Positions 305-57,310 of a stretch of DNA of 64,000 nucleotides are shown piece after piece. Below the pieces are notes generated by a model. That model did not search any database and was not told the origin of the DNA. It saw only the letters and a program-made list of their open reading frames with translations. The DNA comes from Octopus vulgaris (lineage: Eukaryota). The position numbers and the translations under genes were made by a program. Location of the stretch: contig OX597822.1 in NCBI GenBank assembly GCA_951406725.2, positions 90,830,001-90,894,000 of the forward strand, in the 5' to 3' direction. Each line of letters begins with the position of its first letter. Within the stretch, counting starts at the first letter, position 1.

Positions 305-308
<4 letters not shown>
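1..308 (-). mobile_element. RTE LINE 3' fragment (end of ORF plus start of 3'UTR)
   Basis: Reverse complement matches 41780-41930 ([26 protein letters not shown]); abuts (TA)n. Confidence 0.85.
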
Positions 309-356
<48 letters not shown>

Positions 357-382
357 CATATTATATAATATATATATATATT

Positions 383-457
<75 letters not shown>
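309..457. repeat. Compound (TA)n-(GA)n microsatellite
   Basis: Seen directly; similar (TA)n/(CA)n tracts near 14546, 17350, 37770-38330, 39380, 44466, 45660, 57120 and 63590. Confidence 0.95.
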
Positions 458-459
<2 letters not shown>

Positions 460-673
460 AATCGAAACATGAAAACACAAAGAGAAAACACAACAACGCG
501 AGGACGTGGAACAAGTATAGTGTTATTAGACGCTCAGGAAAGAAAAGAAAGAAAGAGGATTTAACGTTTCAAGCGGAGCTCTTCATCAGAAACATAGGCA
601 AAGGAAAGATCCAACGAAGGGAAGACGGAGGAAAAGAAATCGCCAACGATACACACGCAGTCACATTTTGAAT
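458..673 (-). mobile_element. Short non-coding hammerhead-bearing repeat, family H1 (Penelope pLTR/retrozyme-like)
   Basis: Reverse complement of 37983-38186; microsatellites on both sides. Confidence 0.7.
559..593 (-). ncRNA. Minimal type I hammerhead ribozyme motif
   Basis: Minus strand gttt-CTGATGA-A-GAGC-TCC-GCTT-GAAAC-GTT-aaat: canonical core, stems I and II, palindromic ACGU stem III. Confidence 0.75.
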
Positions 674-1370: not shown

Positions 1371-1646
1371 ACATGCACCTTCGTGTTGGGGGTCATCTTT
1401 ACTTTGTTATCTCTCCTACTTCTGGCCTCTCGTGTGTGACCCTTCTGTCCGAAGTCAGTCGCCATGATAGATCGTTAGCCACTACACACATTTTTTCTCT
1501 CCTTGTTTTTTCTGTGTCCCTTTCTGTAGAAGAGCGTAGGCTCGAAACGTAAAAGACTTTTTCTATTCCTGAGCATTATACTAATACATCTGTTTGTTTT
1601 GTACACCACCTGTCTTCGTCTTTTGTTTTTTTCATAAACTCTCCTT
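1370..1646 (+). mobile_element. Short hammerhead-bearing repeat, family H2, copy 1
   Basis: Inverted homology to 1662-1996; ends in (TA)n. Confidence 0.65.
1520..1555 (+). ncRNA. Hammerhead-like motif, core variant CUGUAGA
   Basis: cttt-CTGTAGA-A-GAGC-GTAG-GCTC-GAAAC-GTA-aaag. Confidence 0.6.
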
Positions 1647-1661
1647 ATATATATATATATA

Positions 1662-1996
1662 ACGGGAAGCTTTATGAAAATAGACAAAAGACGAAGGCAG
1701 GTTTACGGAAATAAACAAAAGACAAAGGCAGGTGGAATACAAACAAACAATTGTATTAGTATGGCGCTCAGGAAATATAAATAAAACAAGTCTTTAACGT
1801 TTCGAGCCTACGCTCTTCAACAGAAAGATACACAGAGAAGAAACACAGAAAGGAGAGAAAAAAAATGCGTGCAGAGGCTAGCGAATCAACACGGCGATCT
1901 GATTTGGCCAGAAGTCAAAGATCAAACGTGAGACGCAAGAGCGAAATTAGGGGAGATAATAGGGTTAAATGACCTCGCTCCAACATAAGAGTGTGT
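1662..1996 (-). mobile_element. Short hammerhead-bearing repeat, family H2, copy 2
   Basis: Inverted homology to 1370-1646 across the (TA)n at 1647-1661. Confidence 0.65.
1791..1828 (-). ncRNA. Hammerhead-like motif, core variant CUGUUGA
   Basis: Minus strand tcttt-CTGTTGA-A-GAGC-GTAG-GCTC-GAAAC-GTT-aaaga. Confidence 0.6.
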
Positions 1997-3524: not shown

Positions 3525-5400
3525 CATCATCATCATCATACGTCTGTTTTCTATGCTAGTCTGGGTTGGATGGTTTGACTGAAAACTGGTTAGCTGGGGA
3601 ACTGCATCAGGTTCCAAGCTGATTTGGCATGATTTCTACAGCTGGATGCCCTTCCTAATGCCAATCACTCCAAGAGTGTAGTGGGTGCTCTTTATGTGCC
3701 ACTGGCAGTTACGCAATACCGGCATTGGCCATGATTATGATCTCACTTGGTTTGATGGATCTTCTCAAGCATGGTATATTGCCAAAGGTTTCGGTCATTT
3801 GTCACCCAATGTTCCAATGGTGTTTTTTACATGCCACTGGCATGGATGCCAGTTATGTGACACTGTCATCAGCCACTACTATGATTTCATTTGGCTTGAC
3901 AGATCTTCTCAAGCATGGCATATCACCAAAGGTCTTGGTCACTTCTCATTGCCTCCATAAGACCCAACATTCGAAGATCATGCTTCACCACCTCATGACT
4001 TCCTGGGTCTACCTCTTCCACAGGTTCCCTTCACTGTCCTTGTCCATATCCACCACATAACTATATCAGTGCAGTTGTCTCTCTTGCACACTACATCTGA
4101 TGCTTCTTATACCCAACTTTTCTTTCAAGACGCTTACACTCTGTTGTGCATGCACACTCACATTACACATCCAGCAAAGCATACTAGCTTCATTTCTTTC
4201 ATGCCTACACATGTCCTTAGTGGTCACATCCCATGTTTCTCTGCCATGTAGCATGGCTGTTTGTACATAGGCATCATACGATCTACCTTTCACTCTGAGA
4301 GAGAGGCCCTTTGTTACCAACAGAGGTAGGAGCTCTCTGAACGTGGCCCAGCTTATTTTTATTCTAGCAGCTACCTTCTCAGAGCATCCACCTACACTAC
4401 TGACTTGGTTACCTTGGTAACAAAAGCTGTCAACTACTTCTAGTTTTCCCTCTTGGCATTTGATGGAGTTTATTTTCTGTACATTTTTAGTGTTACTAGT
4501 ACCTGTGAACCTTCCACATACAAAAATTATTTTCCCTGTCAACCTCCCTCTGATTTTGCTGCACCATTTGTGTGGCCATAACTTACACTGGGTACATCTT
4601 ATGGAGTTTCTATCTATGCCTTTTACAGATCGAGCACGGCTATCTACCTGAAGGGATTTGTGATTTGTCTGCTTTCCTACTTACTAAGACTTTGGTTTTG
4701 CTAGATTAACTCTGAGGCCCTTTGATTCTAGACCTTTCGAAGGTCATTAGCATAGAAGTGTTCTCAGGGGCAACTTGTCTTAATTTCCTCTGTTATTGCC
4801 TGGAAGACTATGATGAACAAGCAGGGTTTGAAAACTGATCCTTGCTGAACCCCTGCTTGTACCCAAAATTCATTGCTATACTCCTTGCTGATCTTCGCCC
4901 TTCTAACAGCATCCCTGTACATGGCTTGTACAACTGTTGCAAACTACTTGTTTATCCCTAGCTGCCACATTGACCACCAGATAAGGGAGTGGGAGACTCT
5001 GAAAAGCTTTCTCCATGTCGACAAAAGCCAGGTACAGGGGTTTATTTTTGGCCAGATATTTCTCCTGTAGTTGCCTAACCAGGAATATAGCATTAGTTGT
5101 GCTATATCATTTTTCCACAAGAAGTATACCCACGCCCCCAACCCCGTCAGTGTTCCCTGCTCAGAAAATCTTACACCTATGTTCTTTGCCTGTGAGGAAC
5201 CTAGCAGAACTTCCTCTCCACTTTACTTCTTGGATGCTGCACAAATCTACACATCTCCATTCAAGCATCTCAACAATCTCACCAGACCTACCTTTCAGTG
5301 TACCAACATTGTGTGCCAACTTTGAGGGTGTGGGAGGTGTGGGCCCATGAGACCCTGGGATAGGGGACAGCAGCGTCATGTACCTGAAAAGAAAGCTTGC
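3525..5400 (-). mobile_element. RTE LINE, internally deleted copy keeping the N-terminal endonuclease start, part of RT and the (GAT)n tail
   Basis: HNVGTLKGRSGEIVEMLEWRCVDLCSIQEVKWRG (APE endonuclease) joined to RT pieces homologous to 40620-41900; (CAT)n at 3525. Confidence 0.85.
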
Positions 5401-37848: not shown

Positions 37849-37931
37849 GGTATTTGAGTACTCTTTTTTCCACCTTGTTTCACATTTATGTGCTTACTCT
37901 GGTATATATTTATACATATTTTTATATATAC

Positions 37932-37982
<51 letters not shown>

Positions 37983-37984
<2 letters not shown>

Positions 37985-38184
37985 TCAAAATGTGACCGCG
38001 TGTGTACCGTTGGCTATTCATTTCCTCTGTTTTCCCTTCTCTGGATCTTTCCTTCTCCTATGTTTCCGACGAAGAGCTCCGCTCGAAACGTTAAACCCTC
38101 CTTCTTTTCTGAGCGTCCAATAATACTATATTTGTTCCACGTCCTCATGTTGTTGTGTTTTTTTGTGCTTTCATGTTTGTAATA

Positions 38185-38186
<2 letters not shown>
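37983..38186 (+). mobile_element. Hammerhead-bearing repeat family H1, copy 2
   Basis: Homologous to 458-673; embedded in long (TA)n. Confidence 0.7.
38062..38096 (+). ncRNA. Minimal hammerhead motif, variant CCGACGA
   Basis: gttt-CCGACGA-A-GAGC-TCC-GCTC-GAAAC-GTT-aaac. Confidence 0.65.
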
Positions 38187-38222
<36 letters not shown>

Positions 38223-38253
38223 CATATATATATACATAAAATATATATATATA

Positions 38254-38330
<77 letters not shown>

Positions 38331-39909: not shown

Positions 39910-39947
<38 letters not shown>

Positions 39948-39956
39948 CATGTATAT

Positions 39957-41927
39957 ATGACTGCCAAAAGAGAAGCTAGGAGACAGGTTTATTTAGCCAG
40001 AGGGGAAGCGGATAAGAAAAAATTTGCCAATGTTCTGCGCCGTGAGGACCAAAGACTGGAGGTGTTTCGTGTTGCAAGACAGTGTGTGAGAGAGAATCGT
40101 GATGTGGTAGGAGAGAAGTGTGTTCGCATGGAAGATGGTTCACTTGCGCTAAATGAGGATGCAAAGAGAGAGGTTTGGAGATGCCACTATGAAAGATTGC
40201 TGAATGAAGAATATGAATGGGATAAAGAGAGTCTGCCGAATGTTGACCCAACAGAGGGACCAGCTATCCGAGTTGATAGTTCCGTGGTAGCTAAGGCAAT
40301 TAGAAGCATGAAGACAGGGAAAGCCCCAGGCCCATCAGGAATCACTGCAGAGATGCTCAAAATGTCTGGTAGTGTCGGCTATAGCCTAGTCACCCGTATA
40401 GTTAATCAGGTGATACACAAAGGGGTCATACCCAATGACTGGTGTAGCAGTATAATAGTCAACTGCTACAAAGGTAAAGGTGATGCCCTAGATACAAATA
40501 ACTACAGAGGTATCAAGCTGTTGGACCAGGTGATGAAGGTTACGGAGAGGGTCATAGCCCAACTAATTAGAGAGAGAGTTAGTTTAGATGAGATGCAGTT
40601 TGGGTTTGTGTCAGGGAAAAGTACTACTGATGCTATATTCCTGGTAAGGCAGCTGCAGGAGAAATACCTAGCCAAAGATAAGCCCCTGTACCTGGCTTTT
40701 GTTGACATGGAGAAAGCCTTCGACAGGGTCCCCCGATCCCTTATCTGGTGGGCAATGAGGAAACTAGGGATAGATGAATGGTTAGTGAGAGCTGTGCGGG
40801 CCATGTATAGGGACGCCGCTAGTAGGGTGAGGGTTGGAAATGTGTACAGTGAAGAATTCCGGGTAGAGGTAGGAGTCCACCAAGGCTCAGTACTCAGCCC
40901 CCTCCTATTTATCATAGTCCTCCAGGCAATAACGGAGGAATTCAAGACAGGATGCCCTTGGGAGCTCCTCTATGCTGATGACCTTGCTCTAATTGCTGAG
41001 TTGCTATCAGAACTGGAGGAGAAGTTTCAGGTGTGGAAACAAGGATTAGAATCGAAGGGCCTCAGAGTCAATCTAGCTAAAACCAAAGTCGTAATCAGTA
41101 GGAAGGTAGACAAATCACAAACACCTTCAGGTAGATGGCCCTGCTCGATCTGTAGAAAAGGTGTAGGTAGAAACTCTATAAGATGCACCAAGTGTAAGCT
41201 ATGGACACATAAGAGATGCAGCAATGTCAAAGGAAGGCTAACTAGGAAGATGGTTTTTGTATGTGGCAGATGCTCAGGAACAATAAACACTGAAAATGCT
41301 CTGAGACCAACTTCCGTCACTTTCCAGGGAGAAAAACTAGAAATAGTTGATAGTTTCCGTTACCTAGGTGACCAAGTCAGCAGCGGGGGCGGGTGTGCTG
41401 AAAGTGTAACTGCTAGAGTAAGAATAGCTTGGGCAAAGTTCAGAGAGCTCTTACCTCTGCTGGTGACAAAAGGCCTCTCGCACAGAGTGAAAGGCAGACT
41501 GTATGATGCGTGTGTACAAACAGCCATGCTACATGGCAGTGAAACATGGGCCGTGACTGCTGAGGATATGCGTAAGCTCGCTAGAAATGAAGCCAGTATG
41601 CTCCGATGGATGTGTAATGCCGGTACTCACACTCGGCAGAGTGTAAGTACCTTGAGAGAAAAGCTGGACCTAAGAAGCATCAGTTGTGGTGTGCAAGAGA
41701 GACGTTTGCGCTGGTATGGTCATGTGGCGAGAATGGATGAAGATAGTTGTGTGAAAAAGTGCCACACCCTAGCGGTTGAGGGAACCTGTGGAAGAGGCAG
41801 ACCCAGGAAAACCTGGGACGAGGTGGTGAAGCACGACCTTCGAACTTTAGGTCTCACTGAGGAAATGACTAGAGACCAAGACCTCTGGAAGTGTGCTGTG
41901 CGCGAGAAGACCCGGCAGGACAAGTGA
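39957..41927 (+). CDS. RTE reverse transcriptase (endonuclease truncated away) with inserted PHD-type zinc finger
   Basis: NYRGIKLL, QFGF, DMEKAFD, GVHQGSVLSP, YADD, RYLG motifs; CSIC..CTKC..H..C..CGRC; the listed ATG sits at the truncation junction. Confidence 0.85.
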   Translation: MTAKREARRQVYLARGEADKKKFANVLRREDQRLEVFRVARQCVRENRDVVGEKCVRMEDGSLALNEDAKREVWRCHYERLLNEEYEWDKESLPNVDPTEGPAIRVDSSVVAKAIRSMKTGKAPGPSGITAEMLKMSGSVGYSLVTRIVNQVIHKGVIPNDWCSSIIVNCYKGKGDALDTNNYRGIKLLDQVMKVTERVIAQLIRERVSLDEMQFGFVSGKSTTDAIFLVRQLQEKYLAKDKPLYLAFVDMEKAFDRVPRSLIWWAMRKLGIDEWLVRAVRAMYRDAASRVRVGNVYSEEFRVEVGVHQGSVLSPLLFIIVLQAITEEFKTGCPWELLYADDLALIAELLSELEEKFQVWKQGLESKGLRVNLAKTKVVISRKVDKSQTPSGRWPCSICRKGVGRNSIRCTKCKLWTHKRCSNVKGRLTRKMVFVCGRCSGTINTENALRPTSVTFQGEKLEIVDSFRYLGDQVSSGGGCAESVTARVRIAWAKFRELLPLLVTKGLSHRVKGRLYDACVQTAMLHGSETWAVTAEDMRKLARNEASMLRWMCNAGTHTRQSVSTLREKLDLRSISCGVQERRLRWYGHVARMDEDSCVKKCHTLAVEGTCGRGRPRKTWDEVVKHDLRTLGLTEEMTRDQDLWKCAVREKTRQDK

Positions 41928-42651: not shown

Positions 42652-42748
42652 GAAATAAGATTAAGATTAATGTAAAAAAATAAATAACACTGAAGCAAAG
42701 TAACACCAAATATATAGTGCGTGTGTTTTTATTGGCTAAACTGGCAAA

Positions 42749-44107
42749 ATGACTATTCCTAAAGAACTGCTAGATAAAGCCCTAATCTTCGCTAGTGACT
42801 TCATAGAAATTAGTACCAATGATAAGGATATAATCTTCCATGCTAGAAAGACATTACTTTTCAGTGAGAATGCAAAGTGGGTAAAAAACACCGACACGGA
42901 GGGCGCTTTCGATGTGAGCATGGGTTCATATGATGGGGCAGGCATCTGTGATCTAATTGGACTCTTTCTCCTAGATACCTTCGGTAAGACATTCCCTAAC
43001 GTACATTTCGCCATCTACAAAGATGATGCCCTCGCCTTAACAGCTAATACAAATGGACCAGCACAAGATCGTTTTAGGAAGGATATTATCCAGTTAATGA
43101 AACACTTCGGACTTAGTATAACTATAGACACTAACCTGACGGTTGTCAATTTCTTAGACGTTTCCTTAGATCTTAATAATAATATTTATAAGCCTTATAG
43201 GAAGCCCAATGATAGACTAAGTTATATTAATGTAGGTTCATGCCATCCCCCTATAGTATTCAAAAATTTAGTTAAAAATATTAGTAAGAGGATTTCTAGC
43301 CTCTCATCTAATGAGGACATCTTCAATAGCGTTGCCCCAGTTTATAATAAAGCTTTAAAAGATAGTGGTTTTAGCGAAAAAATAAAATATACACCTATCA
43401 CCAGCCCAACAATAAGGAAAAGGAATAATAGAAATAGGAAGGTCATCTGGTTTACGCCCCCTTACTCACCCGAGGTGGCCTTCAATATAGGTAAATATTT
43501 CCTAGCACTGATAGATAGACATTTTCCAGTTAACCATGCTTATAGGAAACTCTTCAATAGACACAATTTAAAAATTAGTTTTAGTTCAACTACCAATTTT
43601 AAAAACATAATCAATCATAACATACAAAAAACACAAGAAGAAAACAGCTGTTCATGCAGGAATAAAGAATTGTGCCCGCTAAATGGAGCTTGCATGTCCA
43701 AGACCATCATATATGAAGCTACCGTAAACTCTATAACCACTAAAGACACCGTTTCGACGAAGAAATACGTGGGCCTGACAGAGGGTAATTTCAAGGCCAG
43801 GTTCAATAACCACACTTTGAGCTTTAGGCACTGGAACAAAAGAAAAGCAACACAATTATCCAATCATATTTGGTCTTTAAGAGATAAAGGTGTCGATTAT
43901 AACATACAATGGAAGATTTTGGCCAGATGTAAGCCCTATACTAACGGCAGCGGAAGGTGCGGTTTATGCGACATGGAGAGATGGCTTATCTGGAAAAGCA
44001 GCTTAGACCCTACCACATGTCTAAATACAAGGACAGAGCTTTTCGGATCATGCCCACATGTGACTAAATTTCTGTTACGTTTTTGGTCCCCTAAAGAAAA
44101 CGGATAG
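42749..44107 (+). CDS. Penelope-like element ORF (RT C-half plus GIY-YIG endonuclease), 5'-truncated
   Basis: FDVSMGSYDGA, IYKDD, NFLD, CSC..CPLNGAC, IIYEA...KYVGLTEGNFKARFNNH, CGLC..E, LNTRTE..CPH. Confidence 0.9.
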   Translation: MTIPKELLDKALIFASDFIEISTNDKDIIFHARKTLLFSENAKWVKNTDTEGAFDVSMGSYDGAGICDLIGLFLLDTFGKTFPNVHFAIYKDDALALTANTNGPAQDRFRKDIIQLMKHFGLSITIDTNLTVVNFLDVSLDLNNNIYKPYRKPNDRLSYINVGSCHPPIVFKNLVKNISKRISSLSSNEDIFNSVAPVYNKALKDSGFSEKIKYTPITSPTIRKRNNRNRKVIWFTPPYSPEVAFNIGKYFLALIDRHFPVNHAYRKLFNRHNLKISFSSTTNFKNIINHNIQKTQEENSCSCRNKELCPLNGACMSKTIIYEATVNSITTKDTVSTKKYVGLTEGNFKARFNNHTLSFRHWNKRKATQLSNHIWSLRDKGVDYNIQWKILARCKPYTNGSGRCGLCDMERWLIWKSSLDPTTCLNTRTELFGSCPHVTKFLLRFWSPKENG

Positions 44108-44303
44108 AACATGCTTTCTGTGTTATGTCCCAAGAAGATTTTATATATTTTTATATATTTTTATATATTTTTTTATGTATTTTTATATAATTTTTATGAC
44201 GAAAAATGCGAGCGATGTATAAGTACGCAGGCAAAGCAGAGTTATAACAGAGTAATTTCCCTTCATTTTTAACGGTATTTTTTCATAACGTTTTCAAATA
44301 GCC

Positions 44304-44366
44304 AGATAACCGAAGAGATGGTGTTGTGGATTTCCACTTCGGCATCTGAAACTCAGAGTTTTATCT
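44304..44366 (+). ncRNA. Hammerhead motif in the Penelope 3' pLTR, variant CCGAAGA
   Basis: agataa-CCGAAGA-GATG...CATC-T-GAAACT-CAG-AGTT-ttatct; 6-bp stem I. Confidence 0.65.
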
Positions 44367-44462
44367 TGACTACCGAGTAATGTAACATATTGTATAGATA
44401 AATTTCCTCTATTTACATAATATTGAGGTCTCTTTCTTTCTTTTGTTATCTTACCGTTTTAT

Positions 44463-44504
<42 letters not shown>

Positions 44505-45722: not shown

Positions 45723-47361
45723 TCATCATCATCATTTCATGTCCATTGTCCATGCTGGCATGGGCTGGGCAGTTTAACTGGGCTGGTAGGCTGCACCAGA
45801 TTCCAGTCTGATTTGGCATGGTTTTCTATGGCTGGATGCCCTTCCTAATGCCAACCACTCTAAGAGTGTAATGGATGCTTTTACATGCGATTTGTGTGAC
45901 CCTGGGTTGTGTTTACATGCCACCTGCATGGGTGCCAATTTGCGTGACACCAGTATCTGCTATGACTGCAATTTTGCTTGGCTTAATGGATCTTTTTTTC
46001 AAGTATGACATAATGCCAAAGGTCTTGGTCATTGCCTCCATGAAGCTCATCACTTGAAAGAAACTCAGCCACTTCGCCTCCGTGAGGCCCCATGCTCAAA
46101 AGGAACTCAACAACTTTGCCTCCATGAGGCCCAACATTCAAAAGATGTTCTTTATATACTACCAGCACAGCACTTCGCCAAAGGTCTCAGTCACCAGTCA
46201 TTGTTTTTGTGAGGCTCAAATTTCAAAGATTATGTTTCAGCACCTCATCCCATGTGTTCCTGGGTCTACTTCTACCACAGATTCTCTCCACAGTTAGAGA
46301 CTAGCACTTCTTTACACAGCTGCCCTTATCCATATGCATCACATGACCATACTAGCACAGTCATCTCTCTTACACACCACATCTGATGTCTTTTATGCCT
46401 AACTTTTCTCTCAATATGCTTACACTCTGTTGAACATGCACACTGACATTGCACATCCAGCGAAGCATACCGGCTTCATTTCTTTCAGCCCTACACATGT
46501 TCTCAGCTGTCATAGCCCATGTTTCACTGCCATGCAGCATATCTGTTTGTATACAGGCATCAAATAATCTGCCTTTCACTCTGAGAGAGAGACCCTTTGT
46601 TGCTAGCTGGAGTAGGAGCTCTCTGAACTTTGCCCATCCTAGTCTTATTCTCACAGCTATGCTCTCAGAGCATTCACCTCCACTACTAACTTGGAAGCTA
46701 TCTACTACCTCTAGCTTACCTCTTCCCCTGGCAGTTGATAGAGTCTATTTTCTGTACATTTTCAACGTTTATTGTATCTGTGTACCTTCTACATACAAAA
46801 GTCAATTTTCCTGTTAACCTTCCTCTGATGTTGCTGCACCTTTTATGTGTCCAAAGCTTACACTGGGTGCATCCTATCGAGTTTCTACCTACACCTTTTC
46901 TACAGATTGAGCAGAGCCATCTGCCTGAAGGGATTTGTGATTTGTCTGCCTTCCTACTTACTAAGACTTTGATTTTTGCTAGGTTAACTTTCAGGCCCTT
47001 TGATTCTAGACCTTGCTTCCATACCTGGAACTTCTCTAGTTCAGGTAGTGATTCAGCTATAAGAGCAAGGTCATCAGCATAGAGGAGCTCTCGGGAGCAG
47101 CCTGTCTTGAATTCCTCTGTTATTACTTGGAGGACTATGATGAACAAGAGAGAGCTGAACACTGATCCTTAGTGAGCCCCTACTTGTACCCTGAATTCTT
47201 CACTGTACTCATTTCCCACCCTCACCTTACTGGTAGCATCCTTATACATGGCTTGTATGGCTCTCAATAACCACTCATCTATCCCTAGTTTCCTCATTCA
47301 CCACCAGATAAGGGATCTGGGGATCCTGTCAAAAGCTTTCTCCAACTCAACAAAAGTCATA
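45723..47361 (-). mobile_element. Degenerate 5'-truncated RTE LINE
   Basis: ITEEFKTGCSRELLYADDLAL...CSICRKGVGRNS; frameshifted; (CAT)n tail. Confidence 0.9.
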
Positions 47362-53022: not shown

Positions 53023-53931
53023 AATATAAACTATTTTCTTTTAAGGTTCCTTACCTTATGCAATGAGAGACCCTTAGTTTTGAAATAATTATTTCTCCCC
53101 ATAATTTAAACCCTAGTTTGAATCAACTCTAACATTATGTACATATCCAGGAATAAACCATCAAGATAAAAAAAAAAATTAGTATTTAAAATAGTAGTCC
53201 CATGATCATTTGTGACCCAGTCTTAATGTATTGAAATAATATGAAAAATGTGACATTAATACCATTTCTTCATTCTGATGATGAGACTGATGTCTTGACA
53301 TATAATAGTCTATTGAGTTTAGTTACACTATTGTTCCAAATAAACATAAAAGACAAATGAAATATGAAAAGTCCTTAATAAAAAAGATCAAACATACTTG
53401 TGTCTCTAATATAACTGGAGTGGAAGGAAAGATGTTCCCTACTTACACAAACATATACACACACACGTTTATTTTTACAAAAATTAAAGTTCTTCAGTGA
53501 CTTCAAAGATTCACCAGTCATCAACTAAACTTCAAAATCACTGTCAACCTTTTCCTTATAAGGACACATTTTATACTCTATTTAAATGTGCCTCCTTCAA
53601 TGAATGTTTGGTTGTTTCTATATATGATTACATGTAAAAAAAAAAATGTATATTGTTTGTATATTACACTTCTAAACAAATTTTATTAAATATTACCATT
53701 TATCCTTTTCTCTAACATGAGAACTAACTTTAATCTTCTTTAAACATTTCTATTAACAAGAGGTATTTGAAAATTTGTCGGTTTTATCAATTTTGTAATA
53801 TCTGCACTTTTGTACCCATTCAATGTTATTCCTTCTTTTGAGTGATTGTAGAAAAAAAAATGTTACATTTTGACTACTTAGTAAAAGTTTTTTTCATTTA
53901 AGATATTCCTCTAATTTAAATCATTTTCCAG

Positions 53932-56760
53932 GAAAAAATTGAAATGCAGCAACGAATAATTCAGCTAGAAGAGGCAAAAAGTAAACTGGAAGAAGAGCAT
54001 GCTGAGTTTATGGATAAGTCACGATTAGCAAATGAAGATCTTGTAAAAGAGCTTACTGAGAGGCACTCAGCTGAACTAACTAAAGCCTTAGAAGAGCAAG
54101 AGTCTCAGTCAATGGAAAAATTGCAAAGTTATATTCAAAAACATTCTGAAGAATTGGAAGTTCTCAGGATCAACCATCAAGAAGAATTTGTAAATTCCAA
54201 TACTGAGCTTTACAACTACTACGAGAGCAAACTTGAAAAGGTACTTTCTGGGTATAAACAAATGTTGTCAGAGAAGAACAATCAACTGGAACAGGCAAAC
54301 CATAATGTTCAAGTTTGTAAAGAAAAAATGTCTGCTATGCAGGTACAATTTGAATCACGCACCCAAGGCTTTGAAACTCGTCTGGCAGAGCTTCAAAAGA
54401 CTCTACAAAGTGAGAAAGACAATTGCATTAAATTACAAAAAGAAATGGAAAACAGCAAAATTCAGTATGAAGAAGGCATCCAGAATCTGAAAGATCAATG
54501 TAATGAAAGATTTAACTATGTGCACCAACTAGAAGAGGAGAAAGGTATTCTCGAAAAGGAGCTGGAATTGACACGCCTTTCTAAAATGGAATTAGAAAAA
54601 CAAGTGACTAAAGAGTTGGACAAACAAGCATCGCATTCTGGTGAAGAACTTTCAAAAATTCAAACACTAGAAAAAGAGCATCAAAAATTTATTGAAACAA
54701 TTACTTTAATGACAGTAAAAGAAGAAACTATGAAAAAAGAAAGTACCTCTTTGGACAAAGAATTGAAGCTTATCAAAGAGAAAAACAATCAACTGTTAGA
54801 CACTATAGATTCTAAAGAAAAAAAATTGTTGGATGTAGAAGCAACATTTGAGAGCCTTTTGAAGACAAATGAAAAAATGAATGAAGAATTAGAAACAAGC
54901 AAACTTCTAGTTAACACTTTAGAACAAGAGAAAGAACAATGTAAAGAAGAAATTCAGTGCTTACAGAGTAATTTAACTCAACAAGGAAATGATATTGAGA
55001 AAATGATGCAGGAAAACGTCTTCTTTAAATCGCACGGTAATGAATTGGAAGAGAAAAATGCAAATCTTGAAAAGGAGTTAAATTTGAAGATAGTAGCATT
55101 TGAAGAAAAAATTATTGAATTGGAAAATTCCCTACAAAAGATTACTGAGCTGAGAGAAGAAAATGATTGCTTGAAGAAGTTAAATGAATCTCTTGAAGAT
55201 GACAAATTTCAGCTTAACACAGAATGGAAAATTAAAATGGATAAATTGCAGGCAGTAAAAGATGCTGAACTAAGTGATGTTTCAGAAGAACATTCCACAA
55301 AGTTGATGAACTCTATATGTGAATACCAAGACAAATTGAAGGATATGGCAAGCATTAAAGAACAATTAACTCTGGAGAAAAATGAAGCTATCAAAGAATC
55401 AAACTTGGTGCAACAACAGCTAGCAAAAAAGTACCAAGAAGCAGAATCTATCATCATTGTCCTTAATGATAAGAATTCAGATTATGAGAAACAAATCAAG
55501 GAATTGTTGATTAAAACTGAATCAGTAGATGAGATCAAGCAAGAATTGATGGAAAATAGATTACTTATGCAACAACAAGTTGACAATCTTCAACAAGAAA
55601 ATAGCCAATTAAAAGAAAAGTATGAGGAAGAAATGAGTGAGAAAGATTCTAAGATGTCTTTGCTACAGACTTCACTAGAGCAGAAATTAGCAGAAAAAAC
55701 TTGTGAAATTGAAGAACTACAAAGTCAGTTGAGTAATAATCAAATAAATGATGCAGAATTACAGGAAAATTTGAAAACTCTTCGGGAGAAATTGTCTGTT
55801 GCTGAAGATAAACTTAGTGATTGTATCCAAAACTATGACAGAGATATTGAAGAACTTAAAGCAAATGTTGAAGCACGTGAAAATGAACTCAGTAAAAAAA
55901 CTCATGAATTTCATCAGAAGGAAAATCAGCTCAAAGCTAAAATTGACGATTTGGATTCTCATTTCAAAGATAATCAGGCTGAAACGAATAATAAAATAAT
56001 GTTGCTAGAATCTCGGATACAAGAAAGTCAAGAGAAACATCTACAAATTGAAGACTTACAGGAAAAAATTGATATTCTAGCAAAAGACAAAGAATCTCTA
56101 ACTGATGAATTAAAAGAAGCTACTTCCAAGTTAGTTGAATATACGAAATCTAATGAGGAGAAACACATTTCAGAAAAAGAAAATGAAAATCTCTTGAAAG
56201 AAGTAGAATCTTTAAGAAATATCAAGGTAAATATAGAATGTCAATTAGATGAAAAAGAAACTTTTTGTCAGGAATATAGTGTCAAAATTAATGAAGTTGA
56301 AGAGAAACTTAGACAAAGTGAAGATAATTTAAAACTAGTTCAAGGAAATTATGAGCAGCTTCAAAAGAAATATGAAATTCTAAACTGTTCTACAAAAAGT
56401 GTTGCTGAAGAAATCCAAGAGAAGCAAGCTGAAGTAGTGTCTGTTTCTCAGAAATTGAGTTTAGCTGTTTCTGAACGAGATCAGTTAAAAGCTGAAATGG
56501 AAAAGAAAATAAACGAACTTCTTGAAGATCATCAATTAAAGTTAACCAAAATGGAGACAGAAGCTAATAATAAGAAAGCAGAATATAAAAAAAAGGCTGA
56601 AATCTATATCTCTCAGCTTAAGAAGCAATCTGAAGAATGTCAGCAGACAGCAATATCTGAACAAAAGAAATCGACAAAAGAAATTGAACACTTGAAAGAA
56701 GAGTTGAAGAAAATAAAAAATGAAAAGAAATTGATGGAAGAAGATTTTGCTCAATGGAAG
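53932..56760 (+). CDS. GOLGA4: GOLGA4-like very large (2829 nt) coiled-coil exon 8 in window
   Basis: ttttccag|GAA; long E/K/Q/L heptad ORF (ORF track 53944-56961); probable donor TGGAAG|gtttgt at 56760/56761, after which composition changes. Confidence 0.85.
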
Positions 56761-56798
56761 GTTTGTACTATATTATACATGTTCAGTTACTATAAAAT

Positions 56799-56925
56799 CA
56801 TTTCAGAAAAACAAAATGAAAATTCAAATCTCTTGAAAGAAATAGAATCTTTAAGAAATATGAAGGCAAATAGAGAATGTCAGTTAGATGAAAAAGAAAC
56901 TTTTTGTCACGAATATAATGTCAAA
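56799..56925 (+). repeat. Diverged in-frame copy of exonic segment 56166-56286
   Basis: ISEKQNENSNLLKEIESLRNMKANRECQLDEKETFCHEYNVK vs ISEKENENLLKEVESLRNIKVNIECQLDEKETFCQEYSVK. Confidence 0.92.
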
Positions 56926-57115
56926 CTCATTCAAGCAGATTGTATATTAAGTTATAGTTAGAATGATCATCACTTTGTTACATGTAATATTCTCATATCC
57001 TTTCTCCCTTATGTCTCTCTCTCTCTTTCTTACACACACACACACACAATTTCTGCTCCTTCCTTTCTCTTTTTCTCCCCCTTTCTTTCCTTATGTATAT
57101 GAGCATGTGTGTATC

Positions 57116-57152: not shown

Positions 57153-57310
57153 TTCAATGTAACCACACACATGCTGTTGGTGATTTCTTTTCCTTCTTTG
57201 GACTTTTCCCATTCTCCTTTCTGACGAAGAGCGATGCTTGAAACATCAAACTCTCTCTTTTCACTGAGCATCAAGCTAATATATTCCCTGTGCATATTCC
57301 TGCTACTGTA
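57153..57310 (+). mobile_element. Hammerhead-bearing repeat family H1, diverged copy 3
   Basis: ttcaatgtaaccacacac...gttggtgattt...ctgagc, homologous to 37983-38150. Confidence 0.6.
57218..57250 (+). ncRNA. Minimal hammerhead motif
   Basis: ttt-CTGACGA-A-GAGC-GAT-GCTT-GAAAC-ATC-aaa; stem III palindrome broken (ACAU). Confidence 0.6.

What the first reader, a model, noticed from the sequence alone, without database searches (positions are those of the whole stretch)
458..673. ~200-bp ORF-less elements built around a minimal, dimer-type hammerhead ribozyme (family H1)
Seen: three dispersed copies (458-673 minus, 37983-38186 plus, 57153-57310 plus) lie in or beside (TA)n/(GA)n. Each carries CYGAYGA-A-GAGC-loop-GCUY-GAAAC-NUH with only a 3-4 bp stem I, and stem III is reduced to ACGU in two copies. 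Established: Penelope-like elements and animal non-LTR retrozymes carry minimal type I hammerheads with short palindromic stem III that cleave as dimers, and an extra A after A9 is tolerated (CChMVd viroid hammerhead). Inference: this is a non-autonomous retrozyme-like or solo-pLTR family mobilised by Penelope enzymes, possibly via small circular RNAs.
Basis: partly seen in the sequence, partly recalled or inferred. Interest (0 to 1): 0.72.

Follow-up and report, generated by a model that had tools for sequence, protein, structure and literature searches.

The report
Penelope terminal repeats with minimal hammerheads
These 200-base pieces are lone end-repeats of a protein-coding Penelope-type jumping gene, a known arrangement; where thousands of copies start suggests they are likely dead-end copies of the front of its RNA, and that the ribozyme motif inside likely cuts a small share of that RNA in the animal.

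Summary
The hammerhead motifs are real (3 in the window, 0 in 200 shuffles), but the unit is not a stand-alone retrozyme. It is the pseudo-LTR (pLTR) of a ~6-kb Neptune-type Penelope-like element. It or a sister version lies downstream of the RT/GIY-YIG ORF in 20 of 20 ORF loci, and on both sides in 10. The genome holds at least 13,608 copies, inserted in (TA)n and not in tandem arrays. The third window copy is an older sister family.

Copy ends point to a mechanism. The 3' end is fixed at a short UA-rich site in the parent RNA; 58 of 90 5' ends lie within -10..+20 of an initiator-like motif; long copies mostly ignore that wall (6 of 7 pass it). Starts rise about 7-fold per base just after the predicted cut. 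A helix enclosing the priming site was predicted for a sister family and its second arm was found there.

Likely cycle: internal priming, then run-off to the mRNA 5' end, gives solo copies; longer or circular RNA gives full elements. No cleavage or circle was measured. The scan noted this family and the cut-site excess before on other DNA of this genome.

The parts
458..673 (-). Solo pLTR copy 1 of the H1 Neptune-type Penelope-like element; starts at pLTR position +1, ends at the fixed 3' end beside a (TC)n/(TA)n tract
   Evidence: 92.6% to the 3' pLTR of ORF-bearing locus L061
559..593 (-). Minimal type I hammerhead motif of copy 1 (core CUGAUGA, extra A, stem II GAGC/GCUU, ACGU stem III, predicted cut between 563 and 562)
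530..536 (-). Conserved UGAGCGU, predicted 5' arm of a helix whose 3' arm lies only in the parent's 5' UTR
308..457 (.). (AT)n/(AG)n tract at the 3' end of copy 1 (inferred insertion target)
37983..38186 (+). Solo pLTR copy 2, from +1 to the fixed 3' end, between two (TA)n tracts
   Evidence: 94.6% and 93.6% to ORF-linked pLTRs L335 and L084
38062..38096 (+). Minimal hammerhead motif of copy 2 (core CCGACGA = U4C variant; predicted cut after 38092)
38110..38116 (+). Conserved UGAGCGU of copy 2
37903..37981 (.). (TA)n tract 5' of copy 2
38189..38330 (.). (TA)n tract 3' of copy 2
57153..57310 (+). Degenerate pLTR of an older sister family; 5' end beside (AT)n, no (TA)n at the 3' side
57217..57251 (+). 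Decayed minimal hammerhead motif of copy 3 (stem III ACAU, not palindromic; predicted cut after 57247)
1392..1644 (+). pLTR of sister family H2 (hammerhead motif 1520-1555, A6U core); the aligned part is given, the copy may run further upstream
   Evidence: (86% over 273 nt to ORF-linked L319)
1701..1973 (-). Second H2-type pLTR, tail to tail with the first around a (TA)n (hammerhead motif 1792-1827)

Best explanation
The ~205-bp units are solo pseudo-LTRs of a ~6-kb Penelope-like retrotransposon of Neptune type, and they likely arise as dead-end run-off copies of the front of the element's mRNA. Shown: the parent layout is pLTR, ~0.3-kb 5' UTR, ~950-aa RT/GIY-YIG ORF, CA-rich 3' UTR, pLTR, (TA)n. 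Inferred steps: (1) transcription starts near pLTR position +1..+5 at a TCA initiator-like motif; (2) the endonuclease nicks (TA)n and the nicked end primes reverse transcription inside the RNA, at the UUUAUAUA just past the upstream pLTR, which sits inside a predicted UGAGCGU:ACGCUCA helix; (3) the RT reaches the RNA 5' end after ~210 nt and the product is joined to the target, giving a solo pLTR; (4) in roughly 1-2% of events the template had been cut by the hammerhead and the copy starts at the cut; (5) full-length copies come mainly from more-than-unit templates, either tandem read-through RNA or a circle made when the two hammerheads of one mRNA pair and cut. Solo copies lack the helix's 3' arm and a partner hammerhead and are likely inert.
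For: Parent: an H1-type pLTR lies downstream of the ORF in 20 of 20 ORF loci and on both sides in 10 of 20 (two of the loci overlap in one tandem array); ORF motifs DKG, YIDD, C-x4-CxxC linker and a GIY-YIG-type end; Atlas clusters HTH_animal/RVT_1/GIY-YIG at 0.97. Copy number: 13,608 and 8,564 exact matches to two motifs against 49 matches to the pLTR|5'UTR junction. Fixed 3' end in phase with (TA)n: 63 of 74 readable junctions (of 90 copies) are one of two forms. 5' wall: 58 of 90 starts in -10..+20, 3 of 90 beyond -40; in sister family H2 the largest cluster of starts lies at -116..-108 from its cut, beside a TCAGTC motif (small sample, some rows are alignment ends). Internal priming: 14 of 48 junction copies end inside the 5' UTR, 11 of them 102-139 nt on, the 'tail' signature of PMC11167929. 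Long copies: 6 of 7 that reach +20 pass -40, against 3 of 63 solos (Fisher p=4e-6); the two pLTRs of one element are nearly identical (179/185 to 195/195 in 10 loci). Cut-site step: 25 starts at +1..+4 against 8 at -9..-1 (p=1e-7); 15 at +2/+3 against 2 at the matching upstream A positions (p=0.001) (tallied by eye); one mini-element joins exactly at the cut with no (TA)n involved (L366). Helix: the arm predicted in note 3 was found in 38 of 96 rows for H2 and folds in 9 of 12 of those loci examined.
Against: No RNA evidence: the start site, cleavage and circles are all read from DNA ends. The wall overlaps a CGGTCA/TGACCG inverted repeat in H1 that could stall RT. Junction positions are shaped by AT microhomology, and a subfamily with ATAC after the cut inflates the +3 class. 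In the 90-copy sample the step is not visible (3 starts in the 17 nt above the cut, 3 below). The helix is weak: median pairing probability 0.015 over 23 decayed copies, above 0.6 in 5; the MFE preferred other folds for L069/L070; support by compensatory change is one pair in one sister family. The active dimer scores -5.7 kcal/mol against -22.5 for an inactive duplex, and the U4C core lowers activity in vitro (PMC3088659, passage). 4 of 10 long copies start inside the pLTR and 5 of 24 minis leave from upstream of -9, so priming at the downstream pLTR also fits some copies. The 90 copies are the first 90 matches on one contig, not a random draw.
Confidence: 0.72

Rival explanations
1. Ordinary 5' truncation: RT primes at the downstream pLTR (3' end of the mRNA) and usually stalls after ~205 nt at a local RNA structure or bound protein, so the wall is a roadblock and not the RNA's end.
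For: The standard view that most PLE insertions are 5'-truncated and keep one terminal repeat (bioRxiv 10.64898/2026.07.22.740005 discussion; PMC4209133). H1 has an inverted repeat across the wall; nested 5'-truncated copies reaching over 1.2 kb into the 3' UTR exist.
Against: Long copies pass the same sequence on their second pass 6 of 7 times; tails ending in the 5' UTR show priming on the front of the RNA; by eye, the inverted repeat is not kept in sister subfamilies while TCA is.
Confidence: 0.17
2. Non-autonomous retrozyme or SINE-like family: the 200-bp units, or the 450-700-bp pLTR-5'UTR-pLTR minis, are themselves transcribed, cut as dimers, circularised and copied in trans.
For: 24 of 48 junction copies are ORF-less minis with two pLTRs; two pairs share a breakpoint (L342/L359, L344/L370), which may be a second round of copying; solo copies keep the putative promoter.
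Against: About 22 different breakpoints in 24 minis, only one at the cut site; no arrays of the 200-bp unit; star-like tree, mean terminal branch 0.041 against internal 0.008, solos interleaved with ORF-linked pLTRs (59 rows, only copies long enough to align); unit ends are not the cut site.
Confidence: 0.08
3. Solo pLTRs are left by recombination or deletion between the two pLTRs of full-length copies, as with solo LTRs.
For: Suggested for some rotifer solo pLTRs (PMC3846280, passage); the two pLTRs of an element are nearly identical.
Against: A solo would inherit the 5' end of an upstream pLTR; those are scattered or lie beyond -40, unlike the peak at -10..+20 in solos; more than 13,000 events from a few dozen junction copies would be needed.
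Confidence: 0.03

Closest known systems
Minimal hammerheads (min-HHR) in pLTRs of metazoan Penelope-like elements, Cervera and de la Pena 2014, PMC4209133 (parts 1-2 of 4 read)
   Same: Type I order, nucleotide between 9 and 10.1, G10.1-C11.1, palindromic 15.2-16.2, short stem I, thousands of single copies and few inside full elements, dimer needed.
   Different: Stem II is only 4 bp (7-8 in the Schistosoma families); the dominant core is U4C, and A6U in sister family H2; the paper calls single motifs 'probably related to truncated PLEs' and, in the parts read, does not map their ends.
Neptune clade of EN+ Penelope-like elements, as described in Craig et al. 2021, PMC8557442 (passages, section 6, supplement rows)
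   Same: RT followed by a CX2-5CxxC linker and C-terminal GIY-YIG with CCHH-type residues; microsatellite bias; partial tandems, inverted 5' pLTR and tails.
   Different: 2-3-kb CA-rich 3' UTR; besides ~30-nt tails, a second tail class of ~100-130 nt; clade assigned by motif spacing only, no tree.
Poseidon from Anolis carolinensis (PAc), Frangieh et al. 2024, PMC11167929 (parts 1-2 of 4 read)
   Same: Internal initiation of reverse transcription downstream of the hammerhead; uncut RNA as the main template; AT-rich target.
   Different: Here the main start lies in the 5' UTR and matches the (TA)n target over 5-8 nt, while PAc starts inside the ORF without homology to the target; PAc RNA-seq showed no ends at the cut, whereas here a small excess of genomic copies starts there.
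Animal non-LTR retrozymes, Cervera and de la Pena 2020, PMC7229834 (passages); Li et al. 2026, bioRxiv 10.64898/2026.07.22.740005 (part 1, passages, discussion)
   Same: Short ORF-less hammerhead-bearing repeat related to a PLE pLTR, about the same size.
   Different: Retrozymes are tandem repeats, with canonical type I hammerheads and detected circular RNA in the 2020 paper; H1 is dispersed, carries the minimal motif and is bounded by the pLTR ends, not by cut sites.

Membership tests
PLE minimal hammerhead (min-HHR) | Core boxes with stems I and II in type I order | tested here: met
   91% of stem I positions paired over 136 distinct motif strings found without a pairing filter (strings are related, most are H1); U4C core in 46 of 81
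PLE minimal hammerhead (min-HHR) | Extra nucleotide between 9 and 10.1, G10.1-C11.1, palindromic 15.2-16.2 | tested here: met
   ACGU in 70 of 81 with an intact GAAA box; copy 3 has ACAU
PLE minimal hammerhead (min-HHR) | Located in the pLTR of a PLE | tested here: met
PLE minimal hammerhead (min-HHR) | Self-cleavage as a dimer | not testable with these tools
   Indirect only: step in copy starts at the cut; unfavourable dimer energy
EN+ Penelope-like element | Single ORF with RT and C-terminal GIY-YIG | tested here: met
   949-aa open frames in two sister-family loci, frameshifted versions in H1 proper; Pfam RVT_1 only below cutoff, E=0.0018, no Pfam GIY-YIG hit; Atlas 0.97; motifs read by eye
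EN+ Penelope-like element | pLTRs, partial tandems, inverted 5' copy, tail | tested here: met
Neptune clade | CX2-5CxxC linker with the long spacer before the GIY-YIG (against Nematis) | tested here: met
   sequence compared by eye with two Neptune and two Nematis rows of the PMC8557442 supplement
Neptune clade | RT phylogeny within Neptune | not tested
   No named reference proteins were fetched
Non-LTR retrozyme | Tandem repeats of two or more hammerhead-bearing units | tested here: not met
   second copy within 1.5 kb in 6, 8 and 2 of 30 in three overlapping samples; the direct neighbours read in sequence (L023, L068, L074) are separated by (TA)n
Non-LTR retrozyme | Independent of a coding element | tested here: not met
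Non-LTR retrozyme | Abundant small circular RNA | not testable with these tools
   Only assembled contigs of runs not on record as RNA were available

The most novel reading that the evidence does not exclude
The copy ends record a two-template life cycle for Penelope-like elements: the linear mRNA, primed internally in a structured pocket with a telomerase-like match to the (TA)n target, yields only dead-end strong-stop pLTRs, while the two dimer-only hammerheads of one mRNA pair across 6 kb, cut, and close a circle that is the productive template for full-length and tandem copies. This would give both the purpose of the obligate-dimer ribozyme and the way pLTRs are regenerated.
Probability: 0.3. 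Interest if true: 0.68.

Novelty: new member of a known kind. Interest (0 to 1): 0.36.

Why it matters
As an object it is ordinary: one more Penelope pLTR with a minimal hammerhead. Its value is as a large natural record. What the PLE hammerhead does and how pLTRs are regenerated are stated as open in PMC8557442 and PMC2377424, and PMC11167929 found no RNA ends at the cut. More than 13,000 copies with mappable ends give a predicted start site, a priming site with a predicted helix, a low rate of cleavage in the animal, and a sharp difference between short and long copies. Each can be tested with 5'-end sequencing or with the published in vitro assay.

Tried and rejected
Rfam scan: no hammerhead family among 60 matches, all microRNA models on microsatellites. 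Expression: no RNA holder listed; four runs laid were contigs of guessed type and cannot show ends or circles; their back-joint from the 5' UTR to the pLTR start matches the genomic minis, not a cut-site circle. Idea that the downstream GAGCG is an anti-stem-II switch: it folds that way in copy 2 (P=0.84), but families with a GGAC/GUCC stem II do not carry a matching GGAC downstream (L269, L276, L280, L290), so rejected. Idea that the downstream GCGUC is a second cleavage strand giving a monomeric hammerhead: pairing probability at most 0.02 and the triplet is GCC in the young family, rejected. Idea that the ORF ends at the unit's 5' end: the ORF stops 1-3 kb upstream. PDB sequence search with the ORF: 0 hits. 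The pattern was mis-spaced and caught only 86 indel-bearing copies; these 30 loci were read but left out of the 5'-end counts. The regex printed nothing and was redone. Lunse et al. on small PLE hammerheads could not be read; it and its supplement, and the supplements of the bioRxiv preprint, may already describe the ACGU/U4C variants. In one search two of 12 loci could not be folded and one gave a different fold. In one search, 2 of 42 distinct loci were unclassifiable and 7 with imperfect flanks were dropped before the 25-against-8 count (with them: 30 against 10). Searches for a printed strong-stop or cut-site analysis of solo pLTRs listed none by title or abstract; subscription papers and Repbase reports are not covered.

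Full report
Observation. The full descriptor occurs 3 times in the window and never in 200 shuffles. Copies 1 and 2 are 82-83% alike; copy 3 matches only the central 78-91 nt at 73-75% and belongs to an older sister family. Rfam has no matching hammerhead model at E<=1. The genome is 2.8 Gb; earlier notes of the scan call it octopus-like, which I did not test.

Copy number and ends. Exact matches number 8,564 for a 28-nt core pattern and 13,608 for a 16-nt motif just downstream; backward controls gave 0. The 3' end is fixed at GGATTAACT followed by (TA)n in phase: 63 of 74 readable junctions among 90 copies are one of two forms. So the 200-bp unit is real as a size class.

Parent element. A pattern reaching 7 nt further upstream has 215 matches; among 30 of them several share over 0.8 kb of upstream sequence. 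One leads to a frameshifted RT/GIY-YIG ORF. A search with that ORF gave 42 matches; in 20 loci fetched, an H1-type pLTR lies downstream of the ORF in all 20 and on both sides in 10. A young sister family with the same core has 949-aa open frames and a head-to-tail array of period 6.2 kb. [quoted passage not shown] Linker spacing resembles the Neptune rows, not the Nematis rows, of the PMC8557442 supplement. Window copies 1 and 2 are 93-95% identical to ORF-linked pLTRs, and solos sit on long terminal branches among them.

Hammerhead. It has the features listed for PLE min-HHRs in PMC4209133: extra nucleotide after A9, G10.1-C11.1, palindromic 15.2-16.2. Stems covary between sister families, not within H1. 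The usual core is CCGACGA (46 of 81); U4C lowers activity in vitro but supports viroid infectivity (PMC3088659 passage). The active dimer is predicted far less stable than an inactive duplex (-5.7 against -22.5 kcal/mol), in line with the protein-assisted cleavage reported for PAc (PMC11167929).

Where copying starts. In the parent the upstream pLTR continues as TTTATATA-CCGCACGCTCA into the 5' UTR, so the RNA matches the (TA)n target for 5-8 nt exactly where copies end. This junction has 49 matches; 48 were classified (the 49th is L069): 10 long, 24 minis (pLTR, piece of 5' UTR, pLTR) and 14 tails. Tails end inside the 5' UTR, 11 of 14 at 102-139 nt, and several carry an inverted pLTR in front, the known PLE layout (PMC8557442 section 6). 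They show that priming happens on the front of the RNA, as in PAc. Folding suggested that the conserved UGAGCGU of the pLTR pairs with ACGCUCA just past the priming site. I predicted the same arm for sister family H2 and found it: 38 of 96 rows share pLTR end, TATATAT, CACACGCTC (the raw count of 96 is close to the control of 69, the signal is the shared sequence); one of 12 such loci shows the ORF within 1.5 kb and 9 fold the helix. Against this, the helix has low probability in most decayed H1 copies (median 0.015 of 23), and only one compensatory pair was seen.

Where copying stops. The wall near +1 coincides with TCA in H1 subfamilies and with TCAGTC in H2, which resemble the initiator consensus (recalled; Inr-like motifs in rotifer pLTRs are noted in PMC3846280; the Penelope start site and promoter lie in the pLTR, PMC2377424 sections 16 and 18). 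Long copies behave differently: 6 of 10 have upstream pLTRs that begin beyond -40, none of 24 minis does, and 6 of 7 long copies reaching +20 pass the wall against 3 of 63 solos. Their two pLTRs are nearly identical. A linear RNA starting at +1 cannot template this without a jump; a tandem read-through transcript or a circle can. The data do not separate those two.

Did the ribozyme cut? Most templates were uncut: 3 of 90 copies start near the cut. But among copies starting close to it there is a step. In one search, 4 of 30 loci start above the cut and 26 below (p=6e-4). In one search, 25 start at +1..+4 and 8 at -9..-1; leaving out +1, where TA microhomology is longer, 15 against 2. These are by-eye tallies of the first 100 rows, and the two lists share some loci. 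One mini joins the 5' UTR exactly to the first base after the cut (L366). About 5% of copies start within 40 nt of the anchor with a clean (TA)n flank (365 of 6,826 on one strand), and about a quarter of these at +1..+4, hence roughly 1-2%. RT stalling at the hammerhead fold is the alternative; stem I is weak (P at most 0.36).

Retrozyme? The unit is not in tandem arrays, is not bounded by cut sites, and is part of a coding element, so it fails the definitions in PMC7229834 and the 2026 preprint.

Prior work. The arrangement is in print (PMC4209133). A 2026 octopus repeat annotation lists recently active Penelope families and does not mention hammerheads or ribozymes (PMC13282606 passages; PMC6765202 passages were read for background). 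The scan itself noted this family (e1-9585077) and cut-site excesses in PLE families of this genome; I saw those after my own counts, except that preceded. My searches listed no paper on start-site-bounded solo pLTRs or on the priming helix.

Verdict. A real feature and a new member of a known kind. Identity as a Neptune-type pLTR is nearly certain; the run-off mechanism is likely; the circle remains a possibility. Interest 0.36.

Noticed in passing
window 1392-1644 (+) and 1701-1973 (-): Sister family H2, tail to tail around (TA)n; its hammerhead core has U in place of the conserved A6 in nearly all copies seen, including the junction-bearing ones.
   Followed up: partly
window 42740-44464 (+): A 5'-truncated second Penelope-like element with a 455-aa open RT/GIY-YIG-like frame, no tblastn match to the H1 sister protein, ending in (AT)n; a CCGAAGA...GAAAC stretch at about 44310-44355 may be its hammerhead.
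   Followed up: no
window 53920-56961 (+): A 1013-aa open coiled-coil-like frame, probably a large host exon; copy 3 lies about 200 nt downstream, probably in an intron. Only a weak DUF4200 hit.
   Followed up: partly
window 39918-41927 (+), related pieces near 4033-5100 and 46165-47359: LINE-type RT frame of 669 aa with RVT_1 and a weak PHD-finger hit; several decayed copies in the window.
   Followed up: partly
L330 (=L044), L334, L337, L339 and 20 more of L329-L376: Mini-elements pLTR - 5' UTR piece - pLTR with nearly all different breakpoints; likely template switches on one RNA, and possible seeds of retrozymes since most hold two hammerhead motifs a few hundred nt apart.
   Followed up: partly
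L092, L102, L142 and several rows: A recurring deletion of about 16 nt between two direct pyrimidine repeats upstream of the hammerhead; recurrent slippage or a subfamily, not tested.
   Followed up: no
L269, L276, L280, L290, L291; L041, L151: Other minimal-hammerhead families with different stems (GGAC/GUCC; GGCU/AGCC with a 12-nt loop and ACAC/GUGU stem I).
   Followed up: partly
L067 (G000:C5:114149000-114158999): Three H1 copies at 1.2-kb spacing that belong to a tandem duplication including unrelated DNA, not a retrozyme array.
   Followed up: yes
L069, L070, L074, L340: H1-proper ORF starts change frame in homopolymer runs near codons 25-40, while the young sister family is open there; not tested against the programmed-frameshift note e1-10340678.
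   Followed up: no
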